In this document: positions 120 through 45,007 of the stretch, piece by piece | Numbering within the stretch: the stretch's first letter is position 1 | Layout: each line of letters opens with the position of its first letter | Source of the DNA: a virus | DNA length: 64,000 nt | IMG/VR virus record: IMGVR_UViG_3300036781_000236 | Location: 23,999 to 87,998 of that record | Reading direction: 5' to 3' (one strand) | The notes under the pieces: generated by a model | Told to the model about the DNA's origin: nothing | The model's input: the letters and a program-made list of their open reading frames with translations, nothing else | Database searches by the model: none | Made by a program: the position numbers and the translations under genes

Positions 120-123
120 AAGG

Positions 124-735
124 CGGCGGGAGTGGGATTCGAACCCACGCACCCCGAAGGGCCTAGCGCGCTAGCAACAGAAGTCTCTCTAAGAGACACA
201 CTCAAGCGTGTAATCATTGATCTTACGAACTACCAGAAGATTTCGTGTAATCTCAGCGTGGTGATTCGGACAAATAGCAAACATGTTACCTACCTCGTAT
301 TTACCGCCGTCTTTACCAGGAACAAGCCTATGGATATCAAAGGTTTTAGAATACTCGCACCCTTCAATCATGCAATATGTGAAGAGAAACCTTTCTGACA
401 AAAAATCTAAACGGCGTGTTGAATCATTTCTTGCTGGACGTTCTCTACCTCTTGTTGGTCTTTGTCGCTTAGCGACACAACTCTTACTACAAAACCGTGA
501 CTTTTTTGAAAAGGGCGAAAACTCCTTATCGCAATTCTCACATCTCTTCGTTGGGAGACGGCGTCGCAACCCATCGCATGCCTTTGAGCAATAGACATTT
601 CGGCTAATGACTAACTGACTAGGACGCCTATAAATAGGCGTACTACATACCGAGCACACAGTATTGGGTGTTCTCATCGTCTGCTGTGCCATAGTGTTTC
701 AGCCGTGCCCTCTTGAACCACTTGAGTACCCCGCC
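124..735 (-). tRNA. Split tRNA-Ser (probably GCT): 5' half about 704-735, 3' half about 124-177, interrupted by an HNH ORF
   Basis: 5' half GGCGGGG-TA-CTC-AAGTGGTTCAA-GAG-G-GCACG; 3' half TTGCTAG-CGCGC-variable arm-GTGGG-TTCGAAT-CCCAC-TCCCGCC-G; the two acceptor strands pair. Confidence 0.7.
189..692 (-). CDS. HNH endonuclease with Cys-rich zinc modules, inserted in a tRNA
   Basis: CSVC..YCSKAC and CENC..FCSKSC modules; DIHRLVP-GKDGG-Y..GN...ICPNHH HNH core; AT-richer than flanks. Confidence 0.8.
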   Translation of the reverse strand: MAQQTMRTPNTVCSVCSTPIYRRPSQLVISRNVYCSKACDGLRRRLPTKRCENCDKEFSPFSKKSRFCSKSCVAKRQRPTRGRERPARNDSTRRLDFLSERFLFTYCMIEGCEYSKTFDIHRLVPGKDGGKYEVGNMFAICPNHHAEITRNLLVVRKINDYTLECVS

Positions 736-42500: not shown

Positions 42501-43565
42501 CTCAAGCAACGCATCCACCGCCCGGAGCCCCTTCAGAACGTCATCGGGACGCGCCGCGCGACTCATCGCTGCCTTCGCTGTCTCGGCGTGTGTGGATACG
42601 TCACTCACCGAACAGCCCCCGAACCAACTTCGGGAGTCGCCTGACGGCTCCGAGTAGAGGCAGTGGCGGTGGTCGTGAGAATCTGGTCGATAGAGTCGCG
42701 AAGCTGCCGGGCTTCGGTGTGGCTCAGATAGACCTCAACGCGGGCGCTGCCGTATTCACGCTCGATCAGAACACGTACGTAGTTGCCTGAGGGAGAAGCG
42801 CCGCAGTAGCCACGCAGCCACTTCGAGACACGCGCACCGCTCACTGCTGCTCACCTCCGTTGCTTTCACTCGGACGCAGAGCGTCTCCAAGCTGTTCGTT
42901 TGGCTGTCCGGGTTCTTCTGTGAAGGGACGAAGCGCGTCGCGAAGCTCGCAGGCTGCTGCATCGAGGGCCTCGTCATGGTCGAAGCTGCCGCGCGCCTCG
43001 GTGAGGTCATCGAGGCTTCGCGCGGCTTTGACGGCGCGAACAAATGCCCGCAACTCCTCTGAGTGCATCTGCACCCACCAGCAGTCAGGTTCGGCCAGAC
43101 GCTCGATGCGTTCTAGGTCGATCCGAACAACAGAAGTCACGACGCACGCCCTGACTGAGGCGGGATCTTGTGGAAGGTCATCTTCTCGGCCGCGACCACC
43201 CAACGAAGATCGCCAGTGAGCGTGACTACATCGCTGTACGCGGGCTTGCCGTCTTCGCGGTCGCCCTCTTCCCCGATTGCGCCGGAGAAGGTCTTCGTCG
43301 TTCCGGCGGACTGGTACGGACAGGTGATCCGCCAAACACCGAACTCGTCGTACCGGATCGCGAGCACGGTCCCGTCTCCGAAGATCAGCCAGGTGTCCTG
43401 GTCGTCGCTGTCGGGGTTGAACTCCTCGCTGAGGCTTCCCTCGACCTCGATCAGATCGTCGGAGTATCCGTAGACGGTCACCGTGGACAGTCCGGGTGCC
43501 TCCACTACGGGCGTCGTGACGCCCTCCAAGCTGTTGCCCTGTTCGCTGTCTGTCTTCTCGTTCAC
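39561..43565 (-). CDS. Chain of about 10 translationally coupled small hypothetical genes
   Basis: GTGA/ATGA overlaps (e.g. 39914-40183, 40848-41144, 41141-41818, 41811-42608, 42605-42844, 43137-43565). Confidence 0.55.
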
Positions 43566-43693
43566 TGCTCACCCTCCAATGCTCGAAAATATTGGGAAGC
43601 CATCACGGATGGCTCGTAGTAGAACCCGCGCTCTTTATCCCACTTCGTTCCTGTCCAGTCCTCGTAACTGTCCAGCGAAGGCAAGGAACTCAT

Positions 43694-43811
43694 GGAGCAG
43701 GGACAGTGGAGGAATCGAACCTCACCGCGGCCATGCATCACAGGCGGTGTCGAAGCCGCCGCATCCCTGCCGGGAAGGCGCAACCATGCGCGTCTGATCC
43801 ATCCCTGCTCC
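43694..43811 (-). ncRNA. tRNA-like RNA 2 (118-nt core)
   Basis: 13-bp closing stem GGAGCAGGGATGG/CTGTCCCTGCTCC; T-arm GAGG-TTCGATT-CCTC; internal hairpins GCGCA-TGGT-TGCGC, TCCC-GGCA-GGGA, GGCGG-CTTCGACA-CCGCC. Confidence 0.55.
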
Positions 43812-43848
43812 ATCAACTCTCTCTTGGTGTAAGAACAGAAGGACTCAC

Positions 43849-43966
43849 GGAGCAGGCGGCGGCGGGATTCGAACCCGCGGGCTGGGGCACCCATAACCCC
43901 AGCAGAATCATCGACGGGTTGATCGAGTCTCCCGTTGTGGCCGCTTCGGGTACACCGCGCTGCTCC
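43849..43966 (-). ncRNA. tRNA-like RNA 1 (118-nt core)
   Basis: GGAGCAG-C-GCGGTG/CGCCGC-CTGCTCC stem, D-arm CCCG-AAGCGGCCACAA-CGGG, abnormal anticodon arm, 7-bp variable stem, T-arm GCGGG-TTCGAAT-CCCGC. Confidence 0.65.
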
Positions 43967-43986
43967 ATCAGTCCTCCACCCATCAC

Positions 43987-44205
43987 TTATGCCTGAGCCC
44001 GCATCTTCCGCGCCTCGCGCATGATCTTCCGTACAGCTGCGTTGTCGTAGGATTCGATGTCCCACTCCTCGCCGCCGTAGTCCTTGCAGAAGCGGTCGAT
44101 GAACTCCTCAGTGGAGAGCCGTTCGTCACCGAACCAGTCGAGGGTATTTAGGATCATCGGCTCCATTTCTGGGGTGATGTCCTCGGCTGTGGTGAGCACT
44201 CTCAT
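43987..44205 (-). CDS. Hypothetical protein, leaderless
   Basis: ATG 6 nt after TACGAT. Confidence 0.65.
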   Translation of the reverse strand: MRVLTTAEDITPEMEPMILNTLDWFGDERLSTEEFIDRFCKDYGGEEWDIESYDNAAVRKIMREARKMRAQA

Positions 44206-44282
44206 ACCCCCATCGTATAGCAGGGTAGCGGCATGTCAAGTCTCAACCTTAGGTCGAGGCCCGTCACGCGGGCGTGACGGGC
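44203..44282 (-). promoter_or_regulatory. Leaderless promoter with A, C and B motifs
   Basis: 24-bp near-palindrome GCCCGTCACGCGGGCGTGACGGGC, CTCAACC-tta-GGTCGAG, TTGACA-16-TACGAT. Confidence 0.8.
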
Positions 44283-44287
44283 GTGGC

Positions 44288-45007
44288 TTATCCGGTGGTG
44301 GGCTTGTTGCCCTTCTTGCGGTTCTTGATGTAGACCGCGTACCGCAACCACCAACTCGGCGGGATAACCTTCGGCACCGAGGGACGCACCTTCTTCGCGC
44401 TCTTCCCGTAGGGCTTCCAGTCCCCTTCACCCAGCCGCCACGCGACCCACGCGAACCACCCAGTGCGGGCACGCAGCTTGTCTTGCGGGGTCGGCACATA
44501 TTTCGGGACAGGCAGACGGAGGTACTGCGCGACACGGCCGTCCTGGGACAGCCGATACGTGTTCGGGGCACCCTGATGACCAAACGACCACAGCAACGGG
44601 TCGACGCCAGCTTCGAGCACCATCGCGGCGTGCTCGTCCCCGTCGGGTCCGAACGTCACGACATCACCGACCAGCAAATCGCTAGGACTGTCGAGGTGCT
44701 GCAAGTTGAGCCACAGCGTGTAGCTGTTCCCTCCCGTACCGAAACCGTTCCCCATCGGGTCAACGCACCCAGGCACCCACCAGCTAAGAAACTGGACGCC
44801 CTTCGAGCAGTCGCCAACCACCTTTGAGCCGGGCACGTACTTCCGTCCTGTGGTTGGCATCGCGCACGGACGCGCAGCGAGGTACGTCCAGTCGTGATTC
44901 GTGGTCTCGTCCGCCAGGGTGGCGCGCATCACTGCTTCCAGCTGCTTCCGGATATCGGGTGTCGCTGCCTTCGGGGCAGCCTTCTTCTTCGGGGCGGGCT
45001 TCGTCAC
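44288..45007 (-). CDS. Endolysin candidate, NlpC/P60-like peptidase
   Basis: GDCSKG (Cys), GNSYT, GDVVTFG..EHAAMV (His); adjacent to holin-like gene. Confidence 0.65.
   Translation of the reverse strand: MTKPAPKKKAAPKAATPDIRKQLEAVMRATLADETTNHDWTYLAARPCAMPTTGRKYVPGSKVVGDCSKGVQFLSWWVPGCVDPMGNGFGTGGNSYTLWLNLQHLDSPSDLLVGDVVTFGPDGDEHAAMVLEAGVDPLLWSFGHQGAPNTYRLSQDGRVAQYLRLPVPKYVPTPQDKLRARTGWFAWVAWRLGEGDWKPYGKSAKKVRPSVPKVIPPSWWLRYAVYIKNRKKGNKPTTG

What the first reader, a model, noticed from the sequence alone, without database searches (positions are those of the whole stretch)
43683..43977. Tandem tRNA-like RNAs of equal length on long stems
Seen: two units each begin TGATGGAGCAG and close with CTGCTCC; both cores are 118 nt although their interiors differ. 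Each has a TTCGA T-arm next to an acceptor-like helix extended to 13 bp, then continued past a small internal loop (GGAGGACT/AGTCCTTC; GAGTT/AGTTC) to over 20 bp. Unit 1 has tRNA-type D, variable and T arms but a 15-nt anticodon loop; unit 2 has extra hairpins and a second TTCGA loop. Neither has a usable anticodon or a free NCCA end. Inference: a tRNA-mimic ncRNA class, e.g. an RNase III-processed decoy for anticodon nucleases or tRNA-sensing defences, or a Y-RNA-like RNA.
Basis: partly seen in the sequence, partly recalled or inferred. Interest (0 to 1): 0.85.

Follow-up and report, generated by a model that had tools for sequence, protein, structure and literature searches.

The report
Paired tRNA look-alike RNAs in phage
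A soil phage carries two neighbouring genes for small RNAs that are shaped like transfer RNAs but are sealed by a long, shared stem, so they cannot decode and more likely imitate tRNA for another purpose; no relative of them was found.

Summary
On the minus strand, in a 421-bp non-coding gap of an 88-kb soil phage record, lie two units: A at 43980-43838 and B at 43825-43683. Each is a tRNA-derived body closed by a 23-24 bp helix. The outer helix, including a G.G mismatch, has nearly the same sequence in both units. The 104-nt interiors are unrelated (25% identity, chance level) yet equal in length.

Both units have a canonical T arm and a GG-bearing D-type hairpin. Neither has a 7-nt anticodon loop or a free acceptor end. 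They reach no Rfam threshold: tRNA-Sec scores 22.6 and 15.8 bits against a cut-off of 47, and there is no tRNA or YrlA match.

They are not YrlA. The arm order is not permuted, there is no GNCGAA motif, and the phage has no Ro60 gene. The closest reachable relative phage does carry Ro60 plus five Y-like RNAs in the same neighbourhood, but with a different handle.

Pattern scans of viral, metagenome and genome collections found no homologue, so there is no covariation evidence.

Best reading (0.45): these are processed, non-decoding tRNA mimics mounted on a shared handle. This scan earlier noted handle-mounted tRNA mimics beside Ro60-like genes on other phage DNA; this is a Ro60-less variant. 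Their function is inferred, not shown.

The parts
43838..43980 (-). Unit A: handle-closed, class-II-type tRNA-like RNA (143 nt as folded)
   Evidence: Fold -76.2 kcal/mol, z -4.73, 0 of 200 shuffles. Pair table. A cloverleaf-constrained fold is -75.3 against an MFE of -76.2.
43953..43977 (-). Unit A, 5' strand of the closing helix: P1 43977-43970, G of the G.G mismatch 43969, P2 43968-43960, bulged C 43959, P3 43958-43953
   Evidence: Pair table. The 11-nt core TGATGGAGCAG is identical in unit B (D4).
43838..43861 (-). Unit A, 3' strand of the closing helix: P3 43861-43856, P2 43855-43847, G of the G.G mismatch 43846, P1 43845-43838
   Evidence: 13 of 14 bases are shared with unit B (D1).
43931..43950 (-). 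Unit A, D-type arm: 4-bp stem CCCG/CGGG with a 12-nt loop holding GG, preceded by UA
   Evidence: Read from the sequence printed. Used by ARAGORN's relaxed model.
43905..43929 (-). Unit A, anticodon-type stem (5 positions, one C.U mismatch) with a 15-nt loop. The word UCGAU occurs twice, 12 nt apart.
   Evidence: With relaxed settings ARAGORN reads it as a CGA anticodon plus a 10-nt insert.
43881..43903 (-). Unit A, long variable-type arm: 7-bp stem, 9-nt loop
   Evidence: Base-pair probability 0.90 at the pair sampled.
43862..43878 (-). Unit A, T arm: GCGGG / UUCGAAU / CCCGC
   Evidence: T-arm descriptor hit at genome 67876. Aligned to the T arm of the Rfam tRNA-Sec model.
43683..43825 (-). 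Unit B: handle-closed tRNA-like RNA with extra hairpins (143 nt as folded)
   Evidence: Fold -65.3 kcal/mol, z -2.72, 2 of 200 shuffles for 43683-43822. Pair table.
43799..43823 (-). Unit B, 5' strand of the closing helix: P1 43823-43815, G of the G.G mismatch 43814, 15-bp helix 43813-43799
43683..43706 (-). Unit B, 3' strand of the closing helix: 15-bp helix 43706-43692, G of the G.G mismatch 43691, P1 43690-43683
43778..43791 (-). Unit B, D-type hairpin: 5-bp stem with the 4-nt loop UGGU (a tRNA-Sec-like D arm)
   Evidence: Pair probability 0.99. Aligned to the D arm of the tRNA-Sec model.
43764..43775 (-). Unit B, short hairpin UCCC-GGCA-GGGA with a GNRA-type tetraloop
   Evidence: Pair probability 0.98. 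Sequence.
43743..43760 (-). Unit B, hairpin GGCGG / CUUCGACA / CCGCC with an 8-nt loop. It competes with another pairing in the MFE.
   Evidence: Pair probability only 0.12. ARAGORN's relaxed call uses it as a 'tcga' anticodon loop.
43709..43723 (-). Unit B, T arm: GAGG / UUCGAUU / CCUC
   Evidence: T-arm descriptor hit at genome 67722.
44212..44239 (-). Sigma-70-like promoter match, TTGACA-16-TACGAT, just upstream of the 72-aa gene
   Evidence: 1 match found against 0.4 expected. This is a consensus match only.
43987..44205 (-). 72-aa orphan gene. Its stop codon ends 9 nt before unit A's helix, so co-transcription is likely.
   Evidence: Codon-position GC 0.56/0.38/0.78. The only match among 5.8 billion proteins is itself.
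43597..43620 (-). Hairpin AGCCAUC-CGU-GAUGGCU followed by a U-rich stretch: a candidate terminator before the next gene
   Evidence: Folds. The consensus scan did not call it, so this is inferred.

Best explanation
These are two adjacent genes for small, non-decoding, tRNA-derived RNAs. In each, a tRNA-shaped body is mounted by its acceptor end on a long closing helix, the 'handle'.

The body has a canonical T arm plus a hairpin with GG in its loop. These are the parts that build the tRNA elbow.

The handle's outer part, including a G.G mismatch set 15 bp from the T-arm junction, has the same sequence in both units. The two bodies are different tRNA derivatives: A is class-II and Ser-like, and B has a Sec-like D arm and a GNRA-capped hairpin.

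Likely working (inferred):
1. The 72-aa gene and both units are transcribed together from the promoter-like site at 44239-44212, and transcription ends at the hairpin near 43600.
2. Each unit closes on itself as it is made.
3. A double-strand-specific RNase (RNase III type) or a handle-binding protein acts at the shared helix and frees stable RNAs of about 120-140 nt.
4. The sealed tRNA-like heads, with no usable anticodon and no free CCA end, stay out of translation. They bind, and so titrate or recruit, a host or phage factor that recognises tRNA shape.

What is shown: the anatomy, the tRNA descent, the non-coding nature, and non-membership of the catalogued families. What is inferred: expression, processing and the binding partner.
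For: Structure:
- z -4.73 and -2.72 for the two units, and -5.04 for the whole gap, with both units self-closed.

tRNA descent:
- The T-arm descriptor hits 9 places in the genome, 7 in tRNA genes and 2 here, against 1.7 expected.
- tRNA-Sec is the best Rfam model for both units, at 22.6 and 15.8 bits.
- Unit A's cloverleaf lies within 0.9 kcal/mol of its MFE.

Non-coding:
- Codon-position GC is flat at 0.61/0.57/0.60 across the open frame. The flanking genes give 0.56/0.38/0.78 and 0.60/0.46/0.82.

Handle against cargo:
- The interiors are 25% identical, with a shuffle mean of 27.6% and p 0.77.
- The helix strands are 67% and 78% identical, with cores of 11 of 11 and 13 of 14.
- Both units have the same 118-nt length, the G.G mismatch in the same place, and 15 bp to the junction.
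- The handle words occur nowhere else in the genome.

Context:
- The units lie on the same strand as all neighbouring genes, with a promoter-like site upstream and a hairpin downstream.

Precedent for the design:
- The closest reachable relative phage has Ro60 with five handle-bearing tRNA-like RNAs in the same neighbourhood.
- YrlA RNAs are tRNA mimics on a protein-binding stem (PMC4201824, passages read).
Against: - There are no homologues, so there is no covariation. The only comparison is between two paralogues whose bodies may not be homologous.
- There is no expression evidence.
- No partner protein was identified. The adjacent 72-aa protein is an orphan with a low-confidence helical model.
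- Unit B's tRNA-like fold is 4.4 kcal/mol above its MFE. T-arm pair probabilities are only 0.47 (A) and 0.40 (B).
- The terminator is not called by the consensus scan.
- The same phage has a tRNA-Ser(GCU) gene split by a 526-nt insert. So broken tRNA genes do exist in this genome.
Confidence: 0.45

Rival explanations
1. They are Y-RNA-type partners of a Ro60/Rsr ring protein. The protein would be the host's, or a phage Ro60 gene that was lost or lies in the unassembled 8%. The handle docks the ring and the tRNA-like head recruits an effector.
For: The closest reachable relative, G001, shares hits with 40 of 162 candidate ORFs and is collinear (terminase 59%, major head protein 58%). Between its terminase and its homologue of the 271-aa gene it encodes a bona fide Ro60 (vWA_Ro60 195.9 bits, TROVE 135 bits). 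That gene is preceded on the same strand by five RNAs sharing a handle. One of them weakly matches Rfam YrlA (21.5 bits, E 0.18). Earlier notes of this scan describe non-permuted tRNA bodies on handles beside Ro60-like genes in other phages (AI notes, not evidence).
Against: - There is no TROVE match in the 92%-complete record.
- tblastn with the relative's Ro60 finds nothing better than E 5.4.
- All proteins of 300 aa or more that I scanned are structural, replication or glycan enzymes, or a stand-alone vWA protein that is not Ro60-like.
- The relative's handle, GGRCCG..CGGTTAYC, occurs 5 times there and 0 times here.
- There is no GNCGAAN0-1G motif in either unit (sequence).
- There is no YrlA match at E up to 10.
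- The stretch syntenic to the relative's Ro60 locus is contiguous here and lacks it.
Confidence: 0.15
2. They are decaying tRNA genes (pseudogenes), left from a second tRNA cluster and no longer functional.
For: They fail ARAGORN at default settings and fall below every Rfam threshold. The anticodon loops are disrupted. With relaxed settings unit A reads as tRNA-Ser(CGA) with a 10-nt insert flanked by a repeated UCGAU. The phage keeps an intact tRNA-Ser(CGA) elsewhere and has another tRNA gene split by an HNH-bearing insert. The relative has tRNA-Ser-like genes near its terminase.
Against: Decay does not build or keep 23-24 bp near-perfect helices. It also does not keep two handles 11 of 11 and 13 of 14 identical while the bodies are at chance identity, or keep equal lengths and the same mismatch position. 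The T arms and GG hairpins are intact. A 421-bp non-coding gap is unusual in this tightly packed minus-strand gene array.
Confidence: 0.15
3. They are cis-acting RNA elements of the operon. As tRNA-like 'punctuation' or stabiliser structures they would set the 3' end of the 72-aa mRNA and the 5' end of the next one, or protect them, through RNase P, Z or III. They would not act in trans.
For: The position fits. Unit A's helix starts 9 nt after the stop codon of the 72-aa gene, and the units fill the gap before the 142-aa gene on the same strand. In one 194-nt contig of a soil run, the sequence next to the same gene end continues as the helix without its interior. That would leave a plain hairpin where a terminator would sit (table 5; the shorter side is only 20 nt).
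Against: One hairpin would do for termination or stabilisation. Two elaborate tRNA-like bodies of equal length with intact elbows are more than that task needs. The sealed acceptor helix is a poor RNase P or RNase Z substrate by what is known of those enzymes (general knowledge, not tested).
Confidence: 0.12
4. They are working but very unusual tRNAs. Examples would be a Ser-type tRNA whose loop insert is removed or tolerated, or an 8-nt-loop tRNA. They would be released from the handle by processing.
For: Relaxed ARAGORN models exist: A as tRNA-Ser(cga) with a 10-nt insert, B as an ambiguous 'tcga' 8-nt loop. Phages are known to carry irregular 8/4 Ser tRNAs (PMC5389517, abstract and passages read). 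Unit B's 3' strand reads ...UCCCUGC-U-CCA (sequence).
Against: - There is no tRNA-model match at E up to 10.
- ARAGORN's model for B uses a poor acceptor stem with mismatches, not the real closing helix.
- Position 37 would be U in A's loop as ARAGORN reads it.
- Short inserts of this kind in bacterial anticodon loops have no known removal pathway (general knowledge).
- The CCA in B lies inside the helix, and unit A has none.
Confidence: 0.05
5. This is an account of origin, not exclusive of the others. A pre-existing hairpin behind the 72-aa gene was the acceptor site, and different tRNA-like cargos were inserted into or exchanged within its loop. The constant handle is then the old hairpin.
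For: The handles are near identical while the cargos are unrelated. In soil runs, contigs from X4 and X5 match 43962-44041 and 43962-44068 with 1 difference each and then break exactly at 43962. That position pairs with 43853 in unit A's helix. One X5 contig joins 43853 to 43962, skipping exactly the 108 nt between the two paired bases.
Against: There is one low-depth 194-nt contig with a 20-nt side. The tool itself warns that such joints often come from repeats or other organisms. The X4 contig does not show the joint. No mobile-element genes lie nearby: no integrase, resolvase or reverse transcriptase. A scan for the empty hairpin in viral contigs gave 84 stretches, of which the 80 matches I parsed were all chance-like.
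Confidence: 0.08

Closest known systems
YrlA / bacterial and phage Y RNAs bound by Ro60 (Rsr); Rfam RF02553; Chen et al. 2014, PMC4201824 (passages read)
   Same: A small non-coding RNA in which a tRNA-like domain (T arm, D arm, elbow) sits on a stem formed by the 5' and 3' ends. It is often present as two RNAs in tandem, occurs in phages too, and does not decode. The closest relative phage has such RNAs with Ro60 in the same genome neighbourhood.
   Different: YrlA is circularly permuted: T arm, then a closed 'acceptor' hairpin, then D arm, so the closing stem stands where the anticodon stem would be. Here the order is D then T and the closing stem continues the acceptor stem. There is no GNCGAAN0-1G motif, no Rfam YrlA match, and no Ro60 gene. 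The handle sequence is different.
Irregular class-II tRNAs: tRNA-Sec (RF01852) and 8/4 or 9/3 'allo-tRNAs', including phage 8/4 tRNA-Ser (PMC5389517, abstract and passages read)
   Same: A longer-than-7-bp acceptor helix, a long variable arm (A), a 4-nt D loop on a long D stem (B), and a short 4-bp T stem (B). tRNA-Sec is the best-scoring Rfam model for both units. The authors suggest that some allo-tRNAs may be regulatory RNAs.
   Different: Those tRNAs have a 12- or 13-bp acceptor/T branch with a free 3' end and a 7-nt anticodon loop, and they are aminoacylated. Here the helix runs on for 23-24 bp, the loops are 15 and 8 nt, and the scores are 22.6 and 15.8 bits against a cut-off of 47.
Handle-mounted tRNA mimics beside Ro60-like genes in other phages
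   Same: By their titles: non-permuted tRNA cloverleaves grafted by the acceptor end on a conserved stem, several in a row, with a shared handle and differing bodies.
   Different: Those sit next to a Ro60-type gene. This phage has none. I could not compare handle sequences because the notes carry none.
Phage T4 stable RNAs C and D ('species 1 and 2') in its tRNA cluster; adenovirus VA RNA I/II (both recalled from general knowledge, no call)
   Same: Virus-encoded, tandem, roughly 120-160-nt, highly structured RNAs with tRNA-like features and a terminal stem. VA RNAs act as decoys for a host sensor.
   Different: There is no sequence or family relation. T4's RNAs lie inside the tRNA cluster and their function is unknown. 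VA RNAs are eukaryotic pol III transcripts. These are analogies only.
t-elements, mascRNA-type tRNA-like processing signals
   Same: A tRNA-like fold embedded in a longer transcript next to a coding region. mascRNA-menRNA gave a weak match to unit A's T-arm half (15.2 bits, E 3.9).
   Different: Those have an open acceptor end cut by RNase P and RNase Z. Here the end is sealed in a long helix. The match is far below the cut-off of 42.5.

Membership tests
tRNA (Rfam RF00005; ARAGORN) | Covariance-model score at or above 29 bits, or an ARAGORN call at default settings | tested here: not met
   There is no RF00005 match at E up to 10 in 43500-44150 and none at gathering over the window. ARAGORN finds 2 tRNAs in the window, neither of them here.
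tRNA (Rfam RF00005; ARAGORN) | T arm with a TPsiC-type 7-nt loop, and a GG-bearing D loop | tested here: met
   UUCGAAU on a 5-bp stem (A) and UUCGAUU on a 4-bp stem (B). Descriptor hits. GG lies in the D-type loops (sequences).
tRNA (Rfam RF00005; ARAGORN) | 7-nt anticodon loop on a 5-bp stem | tested here: not met
   A has a 15-nt loop. B has a 4-nt GNRA loop and an 8-nt loop.
tRNA (Rfam RF00005; ARAGORN) | 7-bp acceptor stem ending in a free discriminator and CCA | tested here: not met
   The helix continues to 23-24 bp. B's UCCA is base-paired, and A has none.
tRNA-Sec (RF01852) | Score at or above 47 bits; UCA anticodon | tested here: not met
   22.6 bits (B) and 15.8 bits (A). No UCA anticodon loop.
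YrlA / Y RNA (RF02553, RF01053) | Covariance-model match | tested here: not met
   No YrlA or Deinococcus Y RNA match at E up to 10. The same kind of search (E up to 10) does pick up a weak YrlA match in the relative.
YrlA / Y RNA (RF02553, RF01053) | Permuted order: T arm, closed acceptor-like hairpin, D arm (PMC4201824) | tested here: not met
   The order here is D-type hairpin then T arm, and the T arm abuts the 3' strand of the closing helix.
YrlA / Y RNA (RF02553, RF01053) | GNCGAAN0-1G motif near the 5' end (PMC4201824) | tested here: not met
   Absent from both unit sequences as printed. The nearest word is CCCGAAG in A's D loop, which lacks the first G.
YrlA / Y RNA (RF02553, RF01053) | Encoded within about 4 kb of a Ro60/TROVE gene on the same strand (PMC4201824) | tested here: not met
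   No TROVE match in the record. tblastn with the relative's Ro60 gives a best E of 5.4. The record is 92% complete, so absence from the virus is not proven.
YrlA / Y RNA (RF02553, RF01053) | Bound by Rsr/Ro60 in vivo | not testable with these tools
   Needs immunoprecipitation or in-vitro binding.
allo-tRNA (8/4, 9/3) | 12-bp acceptor/T branch split 8/4 or 9/3, long V arm, 7-nt anticodon loop, free 3' end | tested here: not met
   A long V arm is present in A only. The branch is 15+5 (A) or 15+4 (B) bp beyond the mismatch, and there is no 7-nt loop.
tmRNA | ARAGORN or Rfam tmRNA model | tested here: not met
   ARAGORN finds none, even in relaxed tmRNA mode. There is only a 17-nt T-arm match to tmRNA_permuted, 10.5 bits.
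Retron msr-msd ncRNA | Flanking inverted repeats plus an adjacent reverse transcriptase | tested here: not met
   Inverted repeats are present, but there is no RVT_1 match anywhere in the record.
Phage attP carrying a tRNA 3' end | An integrase in the genome, usually adjacent | tested here: not met
   No Phage_integrase or Resolvase match. The complementary 5' strands and full bodies are also not expected of an attP core.

The most novel reading that the evidence does not exclude
This is a Ro60-independent class of phage 'handle-and-cargo' RNAs. A constant hairpin behind a small gene serves as a socket into which different tRNA-shaped bodies are placed; a soil relative may carry the empty socket. 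The sealed tRNA heads would act as decoys or baits for host factors that recognise tRNA shape, such as tRNA-cleaving or tRNA-modifying defence enzymes. It would be a functional counterpart of the Ro60/Y-RNA array that the sister phage keeps in the same neighbourhood.
Probability: 0.2. Interest if true: 0.8.

Novelty: new variant of a known kind. Interest (0 to 1): 0.55.

Why it matters
tRNA mimicry by small RNAs is so far tied, in bacteria and phages, to the Ro60/YrlA particle. Here the same design idea appears with a different wiring: a tRNA-shaped head on a constant stem, two in tandem, but not permuted, with the acceptor end sealed, a different handle and no Ro60 gene. The sister phage meanwhile keeps a classical Ro60 with five Y-like RNAs nearby.

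If the RNAs are made and stable, tRNA mimics would be a more general phage tool than the Ro60 system. They would also offer a compact pair of RNAs for testing what sealed tRNA look-alikes bind. Candidate partners include RNase P, tRNA-modifying enzymes, and tRNA-targeting abortive-infection nucleases or transferases.

If they are relics, they still document how tRNA genes are remodelled in this phage lineage, next to a tRNA-Ser gene split by an HNH-bearing insert.

Tried and rejected
**Coding reading.** A 167-aa frame on the minus strand (43562-44065) and a 134-aa frame on the plus strand (43592-43996) run open through the units. Their codon-position GC is flat at 0.61/0.57/0.60 and 0.64/0.59/0.58, unlike the flanking genes. 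I rejected the coding reading.

**Homologue hunts, all empty.**
- blastn 'distant' against 50,697 phage records: no match.
- Pattern GGAGCAG..GGTTCGA..CTGCTCC in viral contigs: 8 stretches. Of these, 7 look like coding sequence and 1 is two ordinary tRNAs.
- Handle pattern with a 90-120 gap in metagenome contigs: 22 stretches, none with a T arm between the arms. One of them, L044, is an AT-rich repeat contig that carries the same core as a plain hairpin. It has GC 0.41 and no tRNA-like body, so I took it as chance.
- The same pattern in genome contigs: 28 stretches, 0 with TTCGA inside.
- Handle pattern with a 0-30 gap in viral contigs: 84 stretches listed. I parsed 80 matches, and the helix extends by at most 4 further pairs.
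- My own descriptor (T arm plus a helix of 12 or more pairs) over 1.56 Mb of held loci found only unit B and chance hits. It missed unit A because of its bulge.

**Neighbour-gene routes.**
- The 72-aa gene has no relative in viral contigs or among 5.8 billion proteins.
- The 243-aa wrong-frame ORF and the 271-aa gene gave nothing.
- The 142-aa gene gave 19 loci. No tRNA-like motif lies upstream in any, and 1 of the 19 has an ordinary tRNA-Cys far away.
- The lysin gave 337 homologues and 12 viral loci, but only the lysin is shared with them.

**Runs.** No RNA holder was listed. In the four soil runs that I laid, no contig covered 43504-43961 apart from a 20-nt piece. I draw nothing from that gap.

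**72-aa protein.** There are no Pfam or PHROG families. The AlphaFold model has mean pLDDT 63.9 with three helices. Atlas structure neighbours are small helix-turn-helix-like bundles at TM 0.5-0.64. This is too weak to use, and I ran no fold search.

**vWA protein beside the tRNA cluster.** It is not Ro60-like.

**Other.** Supplements of PMC4201824 (lists of phage YrlA RNAs) and of PMC5389517 (phage 8/4 tRNAs) were not seen and could hold closer look-alikes. Literature searches for phage tRNA-like decoys and for Ro60, Y RNA and phage listed nothing that, by title or abstract, describes sealed, non-permuted tRNA mimics without Ro60. I did not read those papers in full.
Full report
**What is there.** The window is the last 64 kb of an 88-kb IMG/VR virus record: 92% complete, linear, GC 0.63, found in soil runs. 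Nearly all genes run on the minus strand. The finding lies in a 421-bp gap between a 72-aa gene (43987-44205) and a 142-aa gene (43137-43565). Just upstream is a lysis cassette: a 271-aa protein, a holin-like 75-aa protein, and a 239-aa protein whose invariant Cys and His columns make me read it as a cysteine-peptidase-type lysin.

Read on the minus strand, the gap holds two units, A (43980-43838) and B (43825-43683).
- TGATGGAGCAG occurs twice, 155 nt apart.
- The partner strand, CTGCTCC(G/A)TGAGT, also occurs twice, 155 nt apart.
- GGAGCAG to CTGCTCC spans 118 nt in both units.

**It is an RNA structure, not a gene and not chance.** Frames that run open through the gap have flat codon-position GC (0.61/0.57/0.60). 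The flanking genes show the genome's strong third-position bias (0.78 and 0.82).

Each unit folds with its two ends paired:
- A at -76.2 kcal/mol, z -4.73, 0 of 200 shuffles fold as well.
- B at -65.3 kcal/mol, z -2.72, 2 of 200.
- The whole 401-nt gap folds at z -5.04 (0 of 100), with each unit closed on itself in both the MFE and the centroid structure.

A T-arm descriptor finds 9 sites in the whole genome. Seven are in the phage's tRNA cluster and two are these units. Simulated genomes give 1.7 on average. So the units descend from tRNA genes.

**Anatomy.**

Unit A:
- The closing helix is 8 bp, a G.G mismatch, 9 bp, a bulged C, then 6 bp.
- Next come UA and a D arm (CCCG/CGGG with a 12-nt loop holding GG).
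- An anticodon-type stem carries a 15-nt loop.
- A 7-bp variable arm follows, then a perfect T arm (GCGGG-UUCGAAU-CCCGC) that abuts the helix.
- This cloverleaf costs only 0.9 kcal/mol more than the MFE.

Unit B:
- The closing helix is 8 pairs, the same G.G mismatch, then 15 bp.
- It is followed by a 5-bp hairpin with loop UGGU (a tRNA-Sec-type D arm, as cmscan aligns it).
- Then come a GNRA-capped 4-bp hairpin and a 5-bp hairpin with the 8-nt loop CUUCGACA. The latter has pair probability only 0.12, because a rival pairing exists.
- About 19 loosely structured bases follow, then a 4-bp T arm (UUCGAUU).

In both units the G.G mismatch lies 15 bp from the T-arm junction.

The handle strands are 67% and 78% identical between A and B, with cores of 11 of 11 and 13 of 14. 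The 104-nt interiors are 25% identical, no better than shuffles (mean 27.6%, p 0.77). The handle words occur nowhere else in the genome.

**What it is not.**
- *tRNA.* ARAGORN at default settings and Rfam at gathering scores find nothing here. At E up to 10 the best models are tRNA-Sec at 22.6 bits (B) and 15.8 bits (A), against a cut-off of 47. There is no tRNA, YrlA or tmRNA-body match. With relaxed settings ARAGORN can force A into tRNA-Ser(CGA) with a 10-nt insert, and B into an 8-nt-loop 'tcga' model on a poor acceptor stem.
- *YrlA.* By the passages I read in PMC4201824, YrlA is defined by a permuted order (T arm, closed acceptor-like hairpin, D arm), a GNCGAAN0-1G motif near the 5' end, and a Ro60 gene within about 4 kb on the same strand. 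None of these is met here.
- *Retron or attP.* The record has no reverse transcriptase, tyrosine integrase or resolvase. That argues against both readings.

**Context.**
- A sigma-70-like site (TTGACA-16-TACGAT, 44239-44212) precedes the 72-aa gene.
- Unit A's helix begins 9 nt after that gene's stop codon.
- After unit B come two direct repeats (D3) and a 7-bp hairpin with a U-rich tail near 43600. Then follows the ribosome-binding site (read by eye from the sequence) and the start codon of the 142-aa gene.

I infer one transcription unit: the 72-aa gene, then A, then B. The 72-aa protein is an orphan with a low-confidence three-helix model.

The phage's seven ordinary tRNAs lie 44 kb away.

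**Relatives.**
- No collection that I could scan holds the units or the handle (checked in 15, 33, 72).
- Loci found through the neighbouring genes lack them.

The closest phage I could reach is G001: 92 kb, with terminal repeats. Of 162 candidate ORFs, 40 have hits in it, and the two genomes are collinear (terminase 59%, major head protein 58%). Between its terminase and its homologue of our 271-aa gene, G001 carries:
- a bona fide Ro60 (vWA_Ro60 195.9 bits, TROVE 135 bits);
- five RNAs on the same strand just upstream, sharing the handle GGRCCG..CGGTTAYC. One of them weakly matches Rfam YrlA in the permuted order (21.5 bits, E 0.18);
- two tRNA-Ser-like genes that score better as tRNA-Sec (42 and 34.7 bits).

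Our phage has neither that Ro60 nor that handle (0 copies). The corresponding stretch is contiguous here. Units A and B lie about 2 kb further along, behind the lysis genes.

So this lineage does use handle-bearing tRNA mimics, but A and B are a different make.

**Soil runs.** One run holds the whole stretch and may be its source. Five others hold small shares. Laid at 80% likeness, contigs of X4 and X5 match the 72-aa gene's end and the outer 5' strand of A's helix, with one difference each, and break exactly at 43962. One 194-nt X5 contig joins 43853 to 43962. These two bases pair with each other in A's helix. The contig would therefore carry the helix without its 108-nt interior. The shorter side is only 20 nt and the depth is 3.6, so this is a lead and not a result.

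**Reading.** The near-identical handles over unrelated, equally long bodies with intact elbows are hard to get from decay. They fit a designed 'handle plus tRNA-shaped head'. With confidence 0.45, I take A and B to be processed, non-decoding tRNA mimics. The shared helix with its G.G mismatch would be the site where a double-strand RNase or a docking protein acts. The sealed heads would bind a factor that recognises tRNA shape.

Expression, processing and the partner are all inferred. The rivals are:
- an orphan Y-RNA-type partner of a host or lost Ro60 (0.15);
- tRNA pseudogenes (0.15);
- cis-acting processing or stabilising elements (0.12);
- cargo inserted into an old hairpin, as an account of origin (0.08);
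- odd but working tRNAs (0.05).

**Novelty.** The units belong to no catalogued RNA family and have no homologue in what I could search. The idea of tRNA mimicry on a stem is known from YrlA. Earlier notes of this scan report handle-mounted tRNA mimics beside Ro60-like genes on other phage DNA (AI notes, which led me to test for Ro60). I therefore class this as a new variant of a known kind. It rests on one genome and has no covariation support.

Noticed in passing
window 122-735, minus strand: With introns allowed, ARAGORN reads a tRNA-Ser(GCU) gene interrupted in the anticodon loop by a 526-nt, low-GC insert. A 167-aa HNH-type endonuclease frame (window 189-692) fills almost all of the insert. 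No Rfam group I intron match was reported for the window. So it is either an unusual intron or a gene broken by a homing endonuclease.
   Followed up: partly
L064 13520-14460 (= G001 about 46390-45450, minus strand) and L262:3825-5450 (minus): The relative phage has a bona fide Ro60 gene (541 aa) preceded by an array of five RNAs sharing the handle GGRCCG..CGGTTAYC. At least one has the permuted YrlA-type order. Two tRNA-Ser-like genes that score as tRNA-Sec, and an HNH gene, lie just upstream.
   Followed up: partly
L256:3064-3975, minus strand (genome 22064-22975, just outside the window): A 303-aa stand-alone vWA-type protein with an LDKSGSM metal-site motif (phrog_7371) lies about 150 nt downstream of the tRNA cluster. 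It is not detectably related to Ro60.
   Followed up: partly
window 43645-43675: Two direct repeats, TCGTTCCTGTCCAG and TCGTAACTGTCCAG, 17 nt apart, lie between unit B and the terminator-like hairpin. They could be a protein-binding site or part of the next gene's promoter (D3).
   Followed up: no
window 43853/43962 (soil-run contigs): One 194-nt contig of run X5 joins two bases that pair with each other in unit A's helix, skipping the 108-nt body. A contig of X4 breaks at the same base. This may be an 'empty hairpin' allele or an artefact.
   Followed up: partly
window 44288-45007, minus strand: The 239-aa lysin, which I read as a cysteine-peptidase type from its invariant Cys and His columns, has 337 homologues at E up to 0.001. 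The best 120 listed are 57-82% identical. In the seven distinct viral loci compared (of the 12 fetched), it is the only gene shared with this phage apart from the 271-aa gene in L060. So it moves as a module.
   Followed up: partly
L044 (metagenome contig, 1251 nt, GC 0.41): An AT-rich repeat contig carries the same 13-bp handle core, G.G position included, as a plain hairpin with a 4-nt loop, in repeated units. It has no tRNA-like body. I judged it a chance find of the pattern scan.
   Followed up: partly
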